The notes beneath the pieces were generated by a model. That model was not told where the DNA came from. It made no database searches and saw only the letters and a program-made list of their open reading frames with translations. Source: Candidatus Micrarchaeota archaeon (lineage in GTDB: Archaea; Micrarchaeota; Micrarchaeia; Anstonellales; Bilamarchaeaceae). Taken from it: 64,000 nucleotides of DNA. The stretch lies in the NCBI GenBank assembly GCA_038046805.1, contig JBBSVO010000003.1, forward strand, positions 93,963-157,962. The letters are read 5' to 3'. Of the stretch, positions 1,196 through 22,630 are shown in pieces. How positions within the stretch are numbered: position 1 is the first letter of the stretch; every line of letters starts with the position of its first letter. A program made the position numbers and the translations under genes.

Positions 1196-1346
1196 TGCGA
1201 CCGTCGGGATTCGAACCCGAGTCATTAGCTTGGAAGGCTAAGATCCTACCGATGTCCAAACCAAATGGCAGGTGATGCATTATGGTTTTCGAAAACCTTT
1301 TGCCATAAGGTTTCATCAGCCAAAAGGTTTGCTAGACTACGATCGC
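1196..1346 (-). tRNA. tRNA-Gly(UCC) with about 80-nt intron in the D-loop (approx 1251-1330)
   Basis: On the minus strand: acceptor GCGATCG/CGGTCGC, anticodon arm TTAGC-CTTCCAA-GCTAA, T arm TCGGG-TTCGAAT-CCCGA, discriminator A. The D stem GTCT/GGAT pairs only after removing the insert. No encoded CCA. Confidence 0.85.
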
Positions 1347-1380
1347 TACCGTAAATAAAAATGCGCAGAAAGGATTAAAA

Positions 1381-1566
1381 TCAGATTCTCTGGTCCGTAG
1401 CAGCAAGTCCTGCCCCTACACCTGCGAATATGCCTCCTGCTACCATCCATGTTGCAGACGGAATTCCCTGAATTGGATTAATCGGCATGTTGCTGAATAA
1501 CCCTAGTGCAAGCATTCCACCGCCAACTGCCATCACACCAACTCCGGTAAAAGTCTGTAAACCCAT
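1381..1566 (-). CDS. small glycine-rich membrane protein (hypothetical)
   Basis: 61-aa ORF with two hydrophobic Gly/Ala-rich segments. No recognisable family. Confidence 0.4.
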   Translation of the reverse strand: MGLQTFTGVGVMAVGGGMLALGLFSNMPINPIQGIPSATWMVAGGIFAGVGAGLAATDQRI

Positions 1567-1581
1567 ATAGCCACCATTACG

Positions 1582-19531: not shown

Positions 19532-22231
19532 CTTCAGTCGTCCACTCGCGAGCTTTTCATTCCCGCCACCGCCTCCACCGAACTTTGAAGCCAGTTTTTG
19601 CATTAGGTCGCGGGCATTTACAGATTTGTTGCTGGAAGCGCAGACCGTATCCCCAAGATTATTTACAAGGATAGCTGAAACACCGACACCGCCTGCTGTG
19701 AGCAGAAGATTTCCGATTTTTCTAAGGGTTTCTGCATCCGTATCAAGTATTCTTACCGCGGTTTTGCCACTTGCAATGCTTTCTTTTACTACTTCGGCAG
19801 CTTCGCTTTTTGCAAATCCTTCTGAAAGCTCCACTATCTTTTTCTTTTGCTCTTTCCATTCATTGAAAAATCGTTCAACAGTCTTCTTCAGCTCATTGTC
19901 ACTTACGCTTACAACCAACGCGGCATCGCGGAGCATTTTTTCCTTTTCCTGAACATATGCAATTGCAACAGTTCCGCATTTGTAGGTTATTCTTTCTACA
20001 CCATCCTGAATACCCTCGCGTTTCACGATTTTGAAGCATCCAATTTCGCCAGTGCTTTTTAGCATGTGATGGGTTCCGCCACACGCTTCGGTGTCGATTC
20101 CCTTGACCGAAACAATGCGAAGTTCTTTTCCCGGAACTGCACCGCCCTGATAAAGCGTGAAACCATATTTTGATTCCGCAACGTTTCGCGGCAAAACTTC
20201 AACAAGAATCGGAACGTTTCGCAAGATGTATTCATTTACCTTTAATTCGATTTTGTCCAGCTCCTCCTGCGTTGTGCGCTTGTAATGAGTGACGTCCAAA
20301 TGCGCTTTTTCCGCATCCTTGTGAGAACCGCCCTGCCAGATATGGTTTCCCAGAATCTCGCGACAAGCCGCATTTAACAGGTGCGCAGCTGTGTGATGAC
20401 GAGTGATTGTTTTCCTGCGTTCCAACTCAACTTCGCCTTTGATCTTTTGACCGGATTTGAACTTGGAAGCATCTGCAGAAGAAACTTCGTGAAGGATTAC
20501 GCCTGCCTGTTTTTGGGTATCGGTTACAGAGATTCCATTTAATGTTCCGGTATCGCCTACCTGTCCGCCCCCTTCTGGATAAAAAGCAGATTTGTCAAGA
20601 ACAACATACTTGCTGCCAATTACTCCAAGGACTTTTGCATCAAACGAACCGGACGAACCGGACGAACCAGACCCCTTTTCCGAATAGTATAGCGGCTCTG
20701 TTTTATCGAATTTTGAAACATCTAATTTTGCTCCCTCTTCTTTCTTTGCTTCTCCTTCCTTTTCACGCACTAACCCGTAGAAGTTACCCGGAACATGAAC
20801 TTTTACTCCAGACTCTTTCGCGACTTCCTCTACAAACTCTGGCGGAACACCATGACTCTTGTAAAGCGTAATAAGATCGTCAGTCTTGATTGAACTGTTT
20901 ACTCCATCAGCTCCTTTGGAAAGCATAGAAACTACTTTTCCTCGCGCTTTTTGTTTTGTTGCCTCGTATTTCTTTTTTTCTTCTGTGATGACGTCCGCGG
21001 TTGATAAGACTCCGCTCTTTAGATTCGGAAACAAGTCTGTAAGATGCGCAGCATGAAGTTCGAGGATTTTCGCATAATCAAACTTGAAACCATATTCTTC
21101 TTCGAAACCAAACGCACGCCTAAGAATGAGCCGTAAATTATATCCGCCTCCGGCATTGCTCGGAAGCATTCCATCTGTAACCGCTGAAAGGACCGTGAGC
21201 AAATGATCACTCGTGGCATAAAGCGCCTGCAACGGCTCAATATGCGAGAAAAGCTCTTGCTTGGAAATACCCAGTTTTTTTGCGATGGATTCTTTTTCTG
21301 CTTCAACGTCGGCAACTTCATCTATGTTAAGGCTTCCTGACATGCGGGCATATTGTGTGAACAGTTTTTCATCAACTTTAACGCCATGCTCCTTTCTCAG
21401 ATATTTTATGACTGGTCCGAAAACAACTTCATAACTGGTTGCAGCGTCATTTGTTATCCATGCAAGTCTCTCAAGACCTGCACCCATATCAATAACTTTC
21501 GTACTGAGTTCTCGTCCAGAACCGTTCGGTAAAACCTCGTATTGCATAAAGACGCAATTTCCTAATTCGAGTCCGCCAACGAAATATTCCATGCTTGGAC
21601 CGTAGTTTCCGCCACCTGCCCAGACATCTTCCATGAAAACAAGCTCTTCTTTCTGGATTCCCAGCGCTTTAAGATACGCAACATCATGCATCAATGCTTC
21701 GTCCTTCCAGTAGAAAAGTCCTGTCTTTTTTGTGTTGAACGCGTGTTGACCGACCATAACGAAATTAGTGTAGTGCCGCCCGGTTACGCCGACGTTCGCT
21801 ATATCGGGAAACCGTATGCAGTGCTGCGGAATGAGCAATGGATTATGAGGCGGGGGAAGCTCGCCATTAACCACGTAAGGCTGAAAATCATTGATCGATG
21901 CGATTGAAAAGTAAAGGTCGTCCCTCCATCTTGCGACCGTGGGATAGGAATCGATTATTCCATGACCATGTTTTGAAAAGTATTTTTTCAATTCATTCCA
22001 GGTTTCAACATAACCGAGTTTTCGCCTTGAGGGAGATTTTCCAATGAATGGATACCCAATACAAGATGCGTCAGCGCAATATTCCCTTTCTCCGCCGCTC
22101 CAGAAATTCCTTCCGCATTTCTTGCATTTCTGACGGGTGAACCCCATCTCGACAATGCTCTTTATCTTGTAATGCTTCTCCCAGTCCCTGGAGAATTGTT
22201 TTCGAAGATCGTTTTTGTCAACATCTGGCAT
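19499..22231 (-). CDS. alaS: alanine--tRNA ligase, archaeal type
   Basis: 910 aa. Archaeal N-terminus with a Zn-ribbon-like KCKKCGRNFWS, editing-domain HHTAAH...CGGTH motifs and a C-terminal DHHA1-like domain. Confidence 0.95.
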   Translation of the reverse strand: MPDVDKNDLRKQFSRDWEKHYKIKSIVEMGFTRQKCKKCGRNFWSGGEREYCADASCIGYPFIGKSPSRRKLGYVETWNELKKYFSKHGHGIIDSYPTVARWRDDLYFSIASINDFQPYVVNGELPPPHNPLLIPQHCIRFPDIANVGVTGRHYTNFVMVGQHAFNTKKTGLFYWKDEALMHDVAYLKALGIQKEELVFMEDVWAGGGNYGPSMEYFVGGLELGNCVFMQYEVLPNGSGRELSTKVIDMGAGLERLAWITNDAATSYEVVFGPVIKYLRKEHGVKVDEKLFTQYARMSGSLNIDEVADVEAEKESIAKKLGISKQELFSHIEPLQALYATSDHLLTVLSAVTDGMLPSNAGGGYNLRLILRRAFGFEEEYGFKFDYAKILELHAAHLTDLFPNLKSGVLSTADVITEEKKKYEATKQKARGKVVSMLSKGADGVNSSIKTDDLITLYKSHGVPPEFVEEVAKESGVKVHVPGNFYGLVREKEGEAKKEEGAKLDVSKFDKTEPLYYSEKGSGSSGSSGSFDAKVLGVIGSKYVVLDKSAFYPEGGGQVGDTGTLNGISVTDTQKQAGVILHEVSSADASKFKSGQKIKGEVELERRKTITRHHTAAHLLNAACREILGNHIWQGGSHKDAEKAHLDVTHYKRTTQEELDKIELKVNEYILRNVPILVEVLPRNVAESKYGFTLYQGGAVPGKELRIVSVKGIDTEACGGTHHMLKSTGEIGCFKIVKREGIQDGVERITYKCGTVAIAYVQEKEKMLRDAALVVSVSDNELKKTVERFFNEWKEQKKKIVELSEGFAKSEAAEVVKESIASGKTAVRILDTDAETLRKIGNLLLTAGGVGVSAILVNNLGDTVCASSNKSVNARDLMQKLASKFGGGGGGNEKLASGRLKSAPKEQSGLF

Positions 22232-22375
22232 GAAATCAACTTTCAGTGTTCTAATGTTTTCGGATAAAACTTTTAAAGCAACGGTTATCCGTTGAAGTAG
22301 CTACCCATAGGCACAACCACATAATTTTTAAACAGAATTCGACTCATTCTTAGAATACCATTTACGCTTAGCTGT

Positions 22376-22630
22376 GGGCCCGTAACTCAGCTTGAACCTT
22401 TTGACTTCTGAAACCTAAAGGCAAAACGTTTCATGTCAAGAACGACGTTTCGTTCTTGAGCATGATCATGAACGGTTCGCCGTTCATGACATCGAAAAGC
22501 CCTTAGGTAGCACAAGTCAAACGGTTTCTGAAATGGTAGAGTGCCGGACTCTTATGGTCCTGAGTCTTGAGTTTAGAGTCTTGGGATTTAAGAAATCCGT
22601 TTGCCAAGGGTTCAAATCCCTTCGGGCCCG
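22376..22630 (+). tRNA. tRNA-Lys(CUU) with two introns: about 140 nt in the D-loop (22391-22530) and about 40 nt at 37/38 (22555-22594)
   Basis: Acceptor GGGCCCG/CGGGCCC, D stem ACTC/GAGT split by the insert, anticodon stem CCGGA/TCCGT (one C-U mismatch) with loop CT-CTT-A, T arm AAGGG-TTCAAAT-CCCTT. Confidence 0.75.
22434..22493 (+). repeat. tandem-hairpin module type A, copy inside the tRNA-Lys D-loop intron
   Basis: TGTC-AAGAACGA-CGTT-TCGTTCTT-GAGCATGATC-ATGAACGG-TTCG-CCGTTCAT-GACATC. By eye, 50 of 60 positions are identical to 40936-40995. Confidence 0.8.

What the first reader, a model, noticed from the sequence alone, without database searches (positions are those of the whole stretch)
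1196..22630. All six tRNA genes are interrupted: nine introns, six at non-canonical D-loop or T-loop positions
Hand-folding gives the following. Gly(UCC) has an 80-nt D-loop intron. Ser(CGA) has a 14-nt 37/38 intron plus a roughly 110-nt T-loop intron. Thr(CGU) has a roughly 136-nt D-loop intron plus a roughly 78-nt 37/38 intron. Pro(UGG) has a roughly 39-nt T-loop intron. Gln(CUG) has a roughly 66-nt D-loop intron. Lys(CUU) has a roughly 140-nt D-loop intron plus a roughly 40-nt 37/38 intron. In each case the cloverleaf stems pair only after removing these segments, and the mature lengths come to 71-82 nt. Multiple and non-canonical introns are established for Thermoproteales and a few other archaeal lineages. 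A set in which every tRNA is split, with inserts up to twice the mature tRNA length, is at the extreme end. It implies a splicing endonuclease with broad bulge-helix-bulge tolerance.
Basis: partly seen in the sequence, partly recalled or inferred. Interest (0 to 1): 0.75.

Follow-up and report, generated by a model that had tools for sequence, protein, structure and literature searches.

The report
Intron-riddled tRNA genes of a Micrarchaeote
Six real tRNA genes of an ultrasmall (DPANN, Micrarchaeota) archaeon are each interrupted by one or two protein-spliced introns, nine in all; this is typical of the lineage and already described for its type species, though the introns change unusually fast between close relatives.

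Summary
Removing nine segments gives six cloverleaf tRNAs: Gly-UCC, Ser-CGA, Thr-CGU, Pro-UGG, Gln-CUG and Lys-CUU. ARAGORN calls all six after splicing. Uninterrupted orthologues in related genomes fix eight of the nine junctions.

Six of the nine junctions carry a perfect 4-bp bulge-helix-bulge central helix in the exact register (chance about 2% per site). Two are relaxed. The Pro T-loop intron has no convincing motif.

The window comes from a Candidatus Micrarchaeota genome. For this phylum's type species, ARMAN-2, 56% disrupted tRNA genes, multiple non-canonical introns and a broad-specificity epsilon-2 endonuclease were published in 2011. In 165 related loci about two thirds of detectable tRNA genes are interrupted. 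The set is therefore ordinary for the lineage: a new member of a known kind.

Three things are less ordinary:
- Relatives at about 80% nucleotide identity have near-identical exons but different intron positions and sequences.
- The Gly, Thr and Lys D-loop introns form one sequence family.
- The two longest introns contain a dispersed double-hairpin repeat about 58-60 nt long, which is absent from the same Lys intron in the closest relative.

No endonuclease gene lies in the window, and splicing itself is inferred.

The parts
1196..1346 (-). tRNA-Gly(UCC) gene. Exons are 1346-1332 and 1251-1196. The mature tRNA is 71 nt.
   Evidence: ARAGORN calls the spliced sequence. Uninterrupted orthologues exist in L082, L083, L084 and L092. 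A T7 run follows the gene.
1252..1331 (-). Gly intron, 80 nt, D-loop position 15/16. HBh'-type motif: central helix GUCU/GGAC, inner helix AAACC/GGUUU.
   Evidence: The first 36 nt are about 78% identical to the Lys and Thr D-loop introns. A homologous 15/16 intron is present in L085.
2294..2499 (+). tRNA-Ser(CGA) gene. Exons are 2294-2331, 2346-2375 and 2486-2499. The mature tRNA is 82 nt.
   Evidence: and orthologues in L082, L084, L092 and L089.
2332..2345 (+). Ser intron 1, 14 nt, canonical 37/38. hBH/BHL type: CUCG/CGAG helix stacked on the anticodon stem.
   Evidence: All Ser orthologues read also carry a 37/38 intron.
2376..2485 (+). Ser intron 2, 110 nt, T-loop 59/60. hBH type: T-stem, then UUCA/UGAA, then 3' bulge AA|U.
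   Evidence: The T-loop is uninterrupted in L082, L084 and L092. The same position and motif type is published for ARMAN-2 tRNA-Cys.
3917..4205 (+). tRNA-Thr(CGU) gene. Exons are 3917-3931, 4071-4091 and 4170-4205. The mature tRNA is 72 nt.
   Evidence: and the uninterrupted orthologue L092.
3932..4070 (+). Thr intron 1, 139 nt, D-loop 15/16. Central helix GCUC/GAGU, then a 1+9 bp inner helix. Homologous to Lys intron 1.
4092..4169 (+). Thr intron 2, 78 nt, position 37/38. Relaxed motif: central helix 3 of 4 pairs, with a C.A mismatch.
   Evidence: A38 is confirmed by L092.
6119..6230 (+). tRNA-Pro(UGG) gene. Exons are 6119-6176 and 6216-6230, about 73 nt spliced. Its D-stem GGCU/GACU has a single Watson-Crick pair.
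   Evidence: ARAGORN calls Pro(tgg) on the 37-nt trial cut. Orthologue L086 has the same D-arm and an intact TTCAAAT T-loop. The odd D-arm is published for ARMAN-2 tRNA-Pro.
6177..6215 (+). Pro intron, 39 nt, inside the T-loop. The junction can slide over 55/56 to 58/59. It contains the hairpin CCAGUCU/AGACUGG. Only a 3-bp GUU/AAC helix lies near the junction, so there is no convincing BHB.
18189..18328 (+). tRNA-Gln(CUG) gene. Exons are 18189-18203 and 18271-18328. The mature tRNA is 73 nt.
   Evidence: and four uninterrupted orthologues.
18204..18270 (+). Gln intron, 67 nt, D-loop 15/16. Strict BHB core: GUCU/GGAC, two 3-nt bulges and a 10-bp inner helix.
22376..22630 (+). tRNA-Lys(CUU) gene. 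Exons are 22376-22392, 22534-22554 and 22595-22630. The mature tRNA is 74 nt.
   Evidence: and 21 orthologues.
22393..22533 (+). Lys intron 1, 141 nt, D-loop 17/18. Central helix UCAG/CUGA, 3-nt bulge, 5-bp inner helix.
   Evidence: Several orthologues carry a D-loop intron at the same position. L001 has the same intron without the 58-nt module.
22555..22594 (+). Lys intron 2, 40 nt. Placed at 37/38 by orthologue evidence (A38). The perfect 4-bp helix UCUU/AAGA sits one nucleotide out of register.
22435..22492 (.). 58-nt dyad-symmetric double-hairpin repeat nested in Lys intron 1. It is absent from the same site in L001.
3969..4029 (.). A more diverged copy of the same double-hairpin module, nested in Thr intron 1.

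Best explanation
These are six functional tRNA genes of a Candidatus Micrarchaeota (DPANN) archaeon. Each is transcribed from its own A/T-rich promoter to an oligo-T terminator as a 112-289 nt precursor. Each precursor carries one or two archaeal protein-spliced introns.

At most junctions the last exon bases pair with the 3' end of the intron. This forms the 4-bp central helix of a bulge-helix-bulge motif, or of its relaxed forms HBh', hBH or BHL. The tRNA splicing endonuclease cuts in the two bulges, and an RtcB-type ligase joins the exons. For this phylum the endonuclease is expected to be the three-unit epsilon-2 EndA with broad substrate tolerance. In the D-loop introns the 5' strand of the D-stem is borrowed for the central helix. 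In the T-loop 59/60 intron the T-stem serves as the outer helix.

What is shown: exon and intron boundaries, the motifs, exon conservation with intron variability, and lineage-wide prevalence. What is inferred: the enzyme type and the splicing itself.

The intron set is evolutionarily fluid, with gain, loss and replacement between genomes at about 80% nucleotide identity. The Gly, Thr and Lys D-loop introns belong to one sequence family. The two longest owe about 60 nt each to a nested, dispersed double-hairpin repeat.
For: - Spliced sequences are called as six tRNAs (the Pro input was the 37-nt trial cut). Unspliced sequences are not.
- Orthologues without an intron at eight of the nine sites fix the junctions; every Ser orthologue read has the 37/38 intron.
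- Six of nine junctions have a perfect central helix in register, P <= 2e-6. MFE folds show the 3-nt bulges for Gln, Thr-1, Lys-1 and Ser-2.
- Exons differ at no more than one position from L081 and L001 where compared (Gly, Thr, Gln), while introns differ in position, length and sequence. That pattern is expected only if exons are under selection and the inserts are removed.
- Every gene is followed by a T-run and preceded by an A/T box.
- The taxon is Micrarchaeota.
- About two thirds of T-arm-intact tRNA candidates in 156 related loci are over-long.
- Published ARMAN-2 precedent: 56% disrupted tRNA genes, 59/60 hBH introns, a tRNA-Pro D-arm with one Watson-Crick pair, and an epsilon-2 EndA that cleaves relaxed motifs.
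- The sequence is identical in independent assemblies.
Against: - There is no RNA evidence of splicing.
- No EndA or RtcB gene was found in the window. Pfam on 40 of 71 ORFs found none. tblastn with M. jannaschii EndA found none.
- The Pro T-loop intron has no recognisable BHB.
- Thr intron 2 and Lys intron 2 fit the motif only loosely.
- The fraction of interrupted genes in the whole genome is unknown.
Confidence: 0.9

Rival explanations
1. The six loci are dead tRNA genes (pseudogenes) broken by insertions. The functional copies lie elsewhere in the genome.
For: The Pro T-loop insert has no BHB. Part of the Lys and Thr inserts is a dispersed repeat. The rest of the genome was not seen.
Against: - Where compared (Gly, Thr, Gln), exons differ at no more than one position from relatives whose coding DNA is only about 77-84% identical.
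- Cloverleaf pairing is intact.
- BHB helices sit at the exact junctions.
- Promoter boxes and terminators are retained.
- Orthologous genes across the phylum are interrupted at the same positions, with tRNA-AlaRS and tRNA-TIM synteny conserved.
Confidence: 0.04
2. The inserts are self-splicing group I or group II introns, or the tRNAs are split or permuted genes joined in trans.
For: Group I introns do occur in archaea (title and abstract of PMC6125680, listed).
Against: - The inserts are 14-141 nt, too short for a ribozyme core.
- Rfam finds no intron family in the window at gathering score, and none at E<=10 across the whole window.
- Exons are colinear on one strand within 112-289 nt.
Confidence: 0.01
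3. For tRNA-Pro only: the 39-nt T-loop insert is not removed by the standard BHB route. Either the gene is impaired, or the endonuclease recognises a much more degenerate structure. That structure could be the T-stem plus a fixed offset, or a 3-bp helix with enlarged bulges.
For: - No 4-bp helix exists in any of the four equivalent registers. There is only GUU/AAC.
- T-loop inserts in L157 Pro, L162 Pro and L081 Gly also showed no 4-bp helix when I read their sequences by hand.
Against: - The Pro exons and the odd D-arm are conserved in L086 and L157.
- The close relative L157 also carries a T-loop insert at the same place, with a different sequence. This argues that the insert is tolerated and removed.
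- The ARMAN-2 enzyme is known to cut relaxed motifs.
Confidence: 0.15

Closest known systems
Disrupted tRNA genes of Candidatus Micrarchaeum acidiphilum ARMAN-2 and its epsilon-2 splicing endonuclease (Fujishima et al. 2011, PMC3239211; Hirata et al. 2012, PMC3488258; PMC12397907)
   Same: - Same phylum.
- Multiple introns per tRNA at non-canonical positions.
- hBH introns at 59/60, and T-loop introns in tRNA-Pro.
- tRNA-Pro(UGG) with a D-arm holding one Watson-Crick pair.
- Many relaxed motifs.
   Different: - This is a neutral-pH groundwater or sediment-type relative at only about 55-65% AlaRS identity to most other Micrarchaeota.
- Here 6 of 6 genes are interrupted, against 56% genome-wide in ARMAN-2.
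- The endonuclease of this genome was not seen.
- I could not compare intron lengths because the supplement is not held.
Multi-intron tRNA genes and intron transposition in Thermoproteales (Sugahara 2008 and Fujishima 2010, as summarised in PMC4033280 and PMC3239211)
   Same: - Up to three introns per gene.
- The same preferred insertion sites.
- Related intron sequences in different tRNA genes, here the Gly, Thr and Lys D-loop family.
- Rapid accumulation of introns.
   Different: - A different phylum and a different enzyme architecture: (alpha-beta)2 there, epsilon-2 expected here.
- These are mesophile-like, AT-rich introns.
- Here one intron family also carries a nested repeat element.
tRNA gene heterogeneity in a natural Caldiarchaeum subterraneum population (PMC3293823; seen only as title and abstract)
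   Same: tRNA gene structure differs between genomes of a natural population, and this heterogeneity is used to model how tRNA genes become disrupted.
   Different: Here the comparison is between species-level relatives (about 80% nucleotide identity), not within one population. I did not read that paper beyond its abstract.
REPIN / RAYT and IS200/IS605-derived palindromic MITEs (from my own knowledge, not checked in the literature tools). This comparison concerns only the nested double hairpin.
   Same: - A short dyad-symmetric pair of hairpins.
- Dispersed copies.
- No target duplication.
- Insertion after a short motif (..AT) that resembles the element's own 3' end (..ACAT).
- A Y1 (IS200-like) transposase gene next to one copy.
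   Different: - The resident IS200-like element has different end hairpins (ACGGCUUNAGCCGU), so it is not shown to mobilise the module.
- The module is only 58 nt.
- No transposition has been shown.

Membership tests
Archaeal endonuclease-spliced (BHB) tRNA introns | The insert lies inside a tRNA gene, and removing it restores a canonical cloverleaf. | tested here: met
   ARAGORN calls all six spliced sequences (Pro on a 37-nt trial cut). Uninterrupted orthologues exist at eight of the nine sites, the exception being Ser 37/38.
Archaeal endonuclease-spliced (BHB) tRNA introns | A bulge-helix-bulge motif, or its relaxed HBh'/hBH/BHL form, spans the two splice sites. The central helix is 4 bp and the cuts fall 2 nt 3' of it on each strand. 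| tested here: met
   Six of nine junctions are perfect in register (P <= 2e-6). Thr-2 has 3 of 4 pairs. Lys-2 is perfect but one nucleotide off. The feature is not met for the Pro T-loop intron.
Archaeal endonuclease-spliced (BHB) tRNA introns | The host encodes a splicing endonuclease able to cut non-canonical or relaxed motifs, of the epsilon-2 or (alpha-beta)2 type. | not testable with these tools
   No EndA was found among 40 of 71 window ORFs or by tblastn with M. jannaschii EndA. The rest of the genome is not available. Precedent in the phylum comes from the literature only.
Archaeal endonuclease-spliced (BHB) tRNA introns | Spliced mature tRNA and excised (often circular) intron are observed as RNA. 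| not testable with these tools
   No RNA data are available.
Group I / group II self-splicing introns | A conserved ribozyme core detectable by covariance model. | tested here: not met
   No Rfam intron family matched at gathering score or at E<=10. The inserts are 14-141 nt.
Split or permuted tRNA genes | The tRNA halves are encoded at separate loci or in permuted order. | tested here: not met
   For all six genes the exons are colinear on one strand within 112-289 nt.
Intron-encoded C/D box sRNA (as in the haloarchaeal tRNA-Trp intron; from my own knowledge) | Box C (RUGAUGA) and box D (CUGA) near the two ends of the intron, plus a guide sequence. | tested here: not met
   By direct reading, only the Gly intron has UGAUGA, and it has no box D partner. 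Rfam found no C/D family hit inside any intron.
IS200/IS605-derived MITE or REPIN-like element (nested module only) | Dispersed copies with conserved ends, hairpin ends, no target-site duplication, and an empty site in a relative. | tested here: met
   There are 4-5 copies in the window and copies in L008, L017, L018, L024 and L089. L001 has an exact empty site. Both hairpins are supported by 12 of 23 pairs with changes on both sides, and there are almost no G-U pairs.
IS200/IS605-derived MITE or REPIN-like element (nested module only) | A cognate Y1 transposase whose element ends match the module hairpins. | tested here: inconclusive
   A Y1_Tnp gene lies at 40440-40913 with one module copy 19 nt upstream of it. 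However, the IS ends defined against L163 carry a different hairpin.

The most novel reading that the evidence does not exclude
In this Micrarchaeota clade, BHB introns are currently mobile. One D-loop intron family has spread to tRNA-Gly, tRNA-Thr and tRNA-Lys. Species-level relatives with near-identical exons carry introns at different positions. The introns also serve as safe landing sites for a REPIN-like, single-strand-transposon-type double hairpin that inflates them to twice the tRNA length. If so, the clade would let archaeal tRNA intron gain, loss and growth be reconstructed event by event. It would also allow a test of whether palindromic mobile DNA seeds new introns.
Probability: 0.35. 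Interest if true: 0.6.

Novelty: new member of a known kind. Interest (0 to 1): 0.4.

Why it matters
As stated, the finding extends a published property of ARMAN-2 to an uncultured groundwater Micrarchaeote. It also shows from about 120 related tRNA loci that heavy intron load is a trait of the phylum.

Practically, it is a warning. ARAGORN and the general Rfam tRNA model miss or mis-bound all six genes, so tRNA complements of DPANN genomes, and completeness estimates built on them, can be badly undercounted.

The more interesting by-products are these:
- Evidence for very fast intron turnover between close relatives.
- A shared D-loop intron family.
- A nested mobile double hairpin, with an exact empty site in the closest relative.

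Together they give concrete, datable events bearing on the long-standing question of where non-canonical archaeal tRNA introns come from.

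Tried and rejected
- Direct detection failed. ARAGORN with or without its intron option, and at relaxed thresholds, gave one mis-bounded gene, one mis-typed gene or 137 noise calls. 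Rfam gave only partial hits.
- My first unconstrained BHB enumeration was too permissive to be useful. It became informative only after the mature sequence fixed the junctions.
- A strict or relaxed BHB for the Pro T-loop intron was not found in any equivalent register. The ARMAN-2 precedent of two adjacent T-loop introns (53/54 + 59/60) does not fit, because TTCAA follows the T-stem directly.
- The 38/39 register for Lys intron 2 has a perfect helix, but I rejected it. It would give U38 here and G38 in L001, whereas the uninterrupted orthologue has A38.
- A C/D box sRNA or K-turn in the long introns was not supported by direct reading, and Rfam gave no hit.
- The apparent tRNA T-arm at 39025 is a chance match inside coding sequence.
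- No EndA was found in the window: Pfam on 40 of 71 ORFs and tblastn with M. jannaschii EndA. The weak L053 hit lies inside a 1971-aa surface protein and is spurious.
- Attributing the double-hairpin module to the neighbouring IS200-like transposase is left unresolved. The IS ends defined by homology with L163 carry a different hairpin.
- The module was not found in viral contigs.
- The supplement of Fujishima 2011, wanted for ARMAN-2 tRNA sequences, is not held. Published maximum intron lengths could not be retrieved.

Full report

Without intron removal the six genes are almost invisible.
- ARAGORN reports a single gene with wrong bounds, 1197-1271. With its anticodon-loop intron option it reports the right span, 1196-1346, but the wrong identity.
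- Rfam reports no tRNA at gathering score and only three partial sub-threshold matches, at Gln, Gly and Lys.
- A scan for T-arm plus complementary acceptor strands recovers Gly, Thr, Gln and Lys with spans of 140-289 nt.
- A second scan that lets the T-loop be interrupted adds Ser and Pro and finds nothing else tRNA-like in 64 kb. Rfam at E<=10 finds no further tRNA fragment in 23.5-64 kb.

After removing nine segments, ARAGORN calls Gly(tcc), Ser(cga), Thr(cgt), Pro(tgg), Gln(ctg) and Lys(ctt) at 71-82 nt. The Pro input to that run was a 37-nt trial cut that leaves a 9-nt T-loop. The 39-nt cut I report for Pro rests on the conserved TTCAAAT T-loop of its orthologue. The segment sizes are 80; 14 + 110; 139 + 78; 39; 67; and 141 + 40 nt.

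The same sequence, introns included, is 100% identical in another MAG assembly and in two independent read-set assemblies. Assembly error is therefore excluded.

**Whose genome is it, and what do relatives show?**

The AlaRS gene between tRNA-Gln and tRNA-Lys retrieves 80 loci, nearly all labelled Candidatus Micrarchaeota. The best is 90% identical (UBA10214, L001) and the rest are 54-65%. A neighbouring protein is recorded by NCBI as coming from a Candidatus Micrarchaeota MAG. The TIM gene between tRNA-Gly and tRNA-Ser retrieves 76 metagenomic loci. The best, L081, is 94% identical in protein and about 77-83% in DNA.

Synteny of these tRNAs with AlaRS and TIM is conserved, which gives orthologues of every gene.
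- Uninterrupted orthologues exist at eight of the nine intron sites and align to the spliced window sequences without gaps. They are Gln in L015, L025, L028 and L056; the Lys D-loop in L008 and others, and the Lys anticodon loop in L019; and Gly, Thr, the Ser T-loop and the Pro T-loop in L082-L092.
- The ninth site, Ser 37/38, carries an intron in every orthologue read.
- This fixes the junctions independently of any folding.

Across these loci, 50 of 66 and 30 of 50 T-arm-intact tRNA candidates are longer than 88 nt. Heavy interruption is thus the rule in the phylum, at least at these orthologous loci.

**Splice-site structure**

I used the archaeal rule: a 4-bp central helix, with each cut 2 nt 3' of it. 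I first verified the rule on the canonical 14-nt Ser intron.
- Six junctions have a perfect central helix in the exact register: Gly GUCU/GGAC, Ser-1 CUCG/CGAG, Ser-2 UUCA/UGAA, Thr-1 GCUC/GAGU, Gln GUCU/GGAC and Lys-1 UCAG/CUGA.
- Random sites of the window give this 1.9% of the time. The binomial P is 3e-9, or 2e-6 if three registers are allowed.
- MFE folds show the expected 3-nt bulges and inner helices for Gln (10 bp), Lys-1, Thr-1 and Ser-2.
- The three 15/16 introns (Gly, Thr, Gln) all use the 5' strand of the D-stem as one strand of the central helix (HBh' type).
- Ser-2, at 59/60, uses the T-stem as outer helix (hBH type). That is the type published for ARMAN-2 tRNA-Cys.
- Thr-2 has 3 of 4 pairs.
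- Lys-2 has a perfect helix one nucleotide out of register. Orthologues require A38, so I keep 37/38.
- The Pro T-loop intron has only a 3-bp GUU/AAC helix beside its internal hairpin. This is the one real weakness of the set.
- The odd Pro D-stem (GGCU/GACU) is conserved in L086 and L157. It matches the 'single Watson-Crick pair D-arm' described for ARMAN-2 tRNA-Pro.

**Are the genes alive?**

- Every gene is followed directly by a T-run and preceded by an A/T-rich box. None encodes CCA.
- Exons compared between the window and L081 or L001 (Gly, Thr, Gln) differ at no more than one position, although flanking coding DNA is only about 77-84% identical.
- The introns differ completely. The comparison is set out below.

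| tRNA | Window | Closest relative |
|---|---|---|
| Gly | One intron at 15/16 | L081: none at 15/16, but one at 21/22 (strict BHB by my reading) and one in the T-loop |
| Ser | Two introns | L081: three introns |
| Thr | Two introns | L081: same two positions, unrelated sequences, roughly 45-50 nt each instead of 139 and 78 |
| Gln | One intron | L001: an additional 37/38 intron |
| Lys | Two introns | L001: an additional T-loop 59/60 intron with a perfect UUCA/UGAA helix |

Conserved exons with freely changing inserts is the signature of inserts that are removed from the RNA. It is not the signature of pseudogenes.

**Intron family and nested repeat**

The Thr and Lys D-loop introns align over their whole length. 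They share an identical 24-mer, and both contain two adjacent hairpins that differ by compensatory changes. The first 36 nt of the Gly D-loop intron are about 78% identical to them.

The Lys intron of L001 is the same intron without the central 58 nt. The window reads ...GUUUCAU[GUCAAG...CAUGACAU]CGAAAAG..., and L001 reads ...GUUUCAU CGAAAAG....

An HMM of that module finds further copies.
- In the window: 40932-40995 and 32227-32288, and more weakly 29066-29123.
- In other genomes: L018 and L024, in both cases just 3' of tRNA-Lys, and L017, L008 and L089.

Features of the module:
- A degenerate pattern matches five times in the window against zero expected. It shows that the module is dyad-symmetric, because hairpin 2 read on the other strand matches the hairpin 1 pattern.
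- The two hairpins are 92% paired across eight copies. Twelve of 23 pairs show changes on both sides, there are almost no G-U pairs, and slid controls give 21-45% pairing. This pattern fits a DNA-level palindrome better than an RNA-only structure.
- Copies begin GUC, end GACAU, mostly follow ..AU, and show no target duplication.
- None is found in viral contigs.

The copy at 40932 lies 19 nt upstream of a Y1 (IS200-like) transposase gene, 40440-40913. Homology with a second insertion site (L163) bounds that IS at 40402-41245. Its own end hairpins (ACGGCUUNAGCCGU) differ from the module. I therefore describe the module as a MITE/REPIN-like mobile element whose mobilising enzyme is not identified. 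It accounts for about 60 nt of each of the two longest introns.

**Mechanism, and what is inferred**

Shown:
- gene structure;
- junction motifs;
- selection on exons;
- prevalence in the lineage;
- intron turnover;
- the insertion polymorphism of the module.

Inferred from established knowledge of archaeal tRNA splicing and from the ARMAN-2 work:
- cleavage by a broad-specificity EndA of the epsilon-2 type;
- ligation by RtcB.

No EndA gene is in the window. Pfam on 40 of 71 ORFs found none. tblastn with M. jannaschii EndA found none; I checked that query sequence against PDB 1A79, and it also matches the ARMAN-2 structure 4FZ2.

**Comparison and verdict**

This is a member of the known class of archaeal BHB-intron-containing tRNA genes. 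It lies in the one non-crenarchaeal lineage where multiple non-canonical introns were already documented: ARMAN-1 and ARMAN-2 are listed in the review table of PMC4033280. Group I or II introns, split or permuted genes, and intron-borne C/D sRNAs were each tested and not met.

Six of six interrupted genes, with pre-tRNAs up to 289 nt, is at the high end. It is still consistent with a lineage in which roughly two thirds of the sampled genes are interrupted and relatives reach three introns and about 250 nt.

I score the finding as a new member of a known kind, of moderate interest. The added value lies in three things: the comparative evidence for rapid intron turnover, the shared D-loop intron family, and the nested mobile double hairpin.

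Noticed in passing
window 40402-41245 (-); tnpA 40440-40913: An 844-bp IS200/IS605-family element. The Y1_Tnp Pfam match has E = 3.5e-29. Its bounds come from the break of homology with a second insertion context (L163, 98.9% identical). Both ends carry similar hairpins: ACGGCUUUAGCCGU near 41180 and CCCACGGCUUCAGCCGUGGG at 40410-40430.
   Followed up: partly
window 32227-32288 and 40932-40995; L018 1799-1860; L024 39-98: Further copies of the 58-nt dyad-symmetric double hairpin that is nested in the Lys and Thr introns. In L018 and L024 it sits atop a long copy-specific stem immediately 3' of tRNA-Lys. In the window, one copy lies inside the IS, 19 nt upstream of tnpA.
   Followed up: partly
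window 41110-41175 and 29066-29123: A second, related double-hairpin family of the form GCGRAUGAACG..CGUUCAUYGCGCCCAUUG..CG..CAAUYGGG. One copy lies inside the IS left end, enclosed by a long GGGGG/CCCCC stem (41091-41235). The other lies inside a 181-aa ORF with no Pfam hit.
   Followed up: no
window 6127-6144; L086, L157: The tRNA-Pro(UGG) D-stem GGCU/GACU has one Watson-Crick pair, two G-U pairs and a C.A mismatch. It is conserved in relatives and matches the peculiarity reported for ARMAN-2 tRNA-Pro.
   Followed up: yes
L081 4282-4420 (Gly); L162 1345-1560 (Pro): T-loop introns that begin AGCUUUG and end ..GUCA occur in two different tRNAs of two genomes. They have BHB-like spacing (a 7x7 internal loop) but at most 2 of 4 pairs in the central helix. 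They look like a distinct relaxed intron class.
   Followed up: partly
L157 2495-2560: In the 86%-identical relative, the 8-mer GGGGUCAU that starts tRNA-Pro is duplicated, with about 50 nt between the promoter-proximal copy and the full gene. This could be an acceptor-stem insert, a long leader or a partial duplication.
   Followed up: no
window 4092-4169, 6177-6215, 18204-18270, 22555-22594; also L017, L089, L001 introns: Many introns are long hairpins with strand-asymmetric arms. The 5' arms are G/U-rich and reuse GAGUCUUG / GUUUC motifs. The 3' arms are runs of NGAAAC at about 7-nt spacing, for example CUGGAAACUCGAAACCGGAAAC. The same motifs recur in unrelated tRNAs of distant genomes.
   Followed up: no
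window 2613-3860 (+): A 415-aa protein with a GGDEF diguanylate-cyclase domain (E = 4e-33). It is conserved in the same position in relatives (L158, L166). From my own knowledge, such domains are uncommon in archaea.
   Followed up: no
window 51205-51318 (-): A stand-alone 5S rRNA gene (71 bits), not linked to 16S or 23S within the window.
   Followed up: no
window 39276-40391 and 43035-44084: Two paralogous DUF1246/DUF1297 genes lie on either side of the IS-containing region.
   Followed up: no
window 9759-10703 (-), 53987-54598 (+): A Nop-domain protein (a domain found in C/D-box RNP proteins) and a Sua5/YrdC-family protein (a family linked to t6A37 synthesis) are encoded in the window. Both belong to RNA-modification machinery but not to the splicing machinery.
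   Followed up: no
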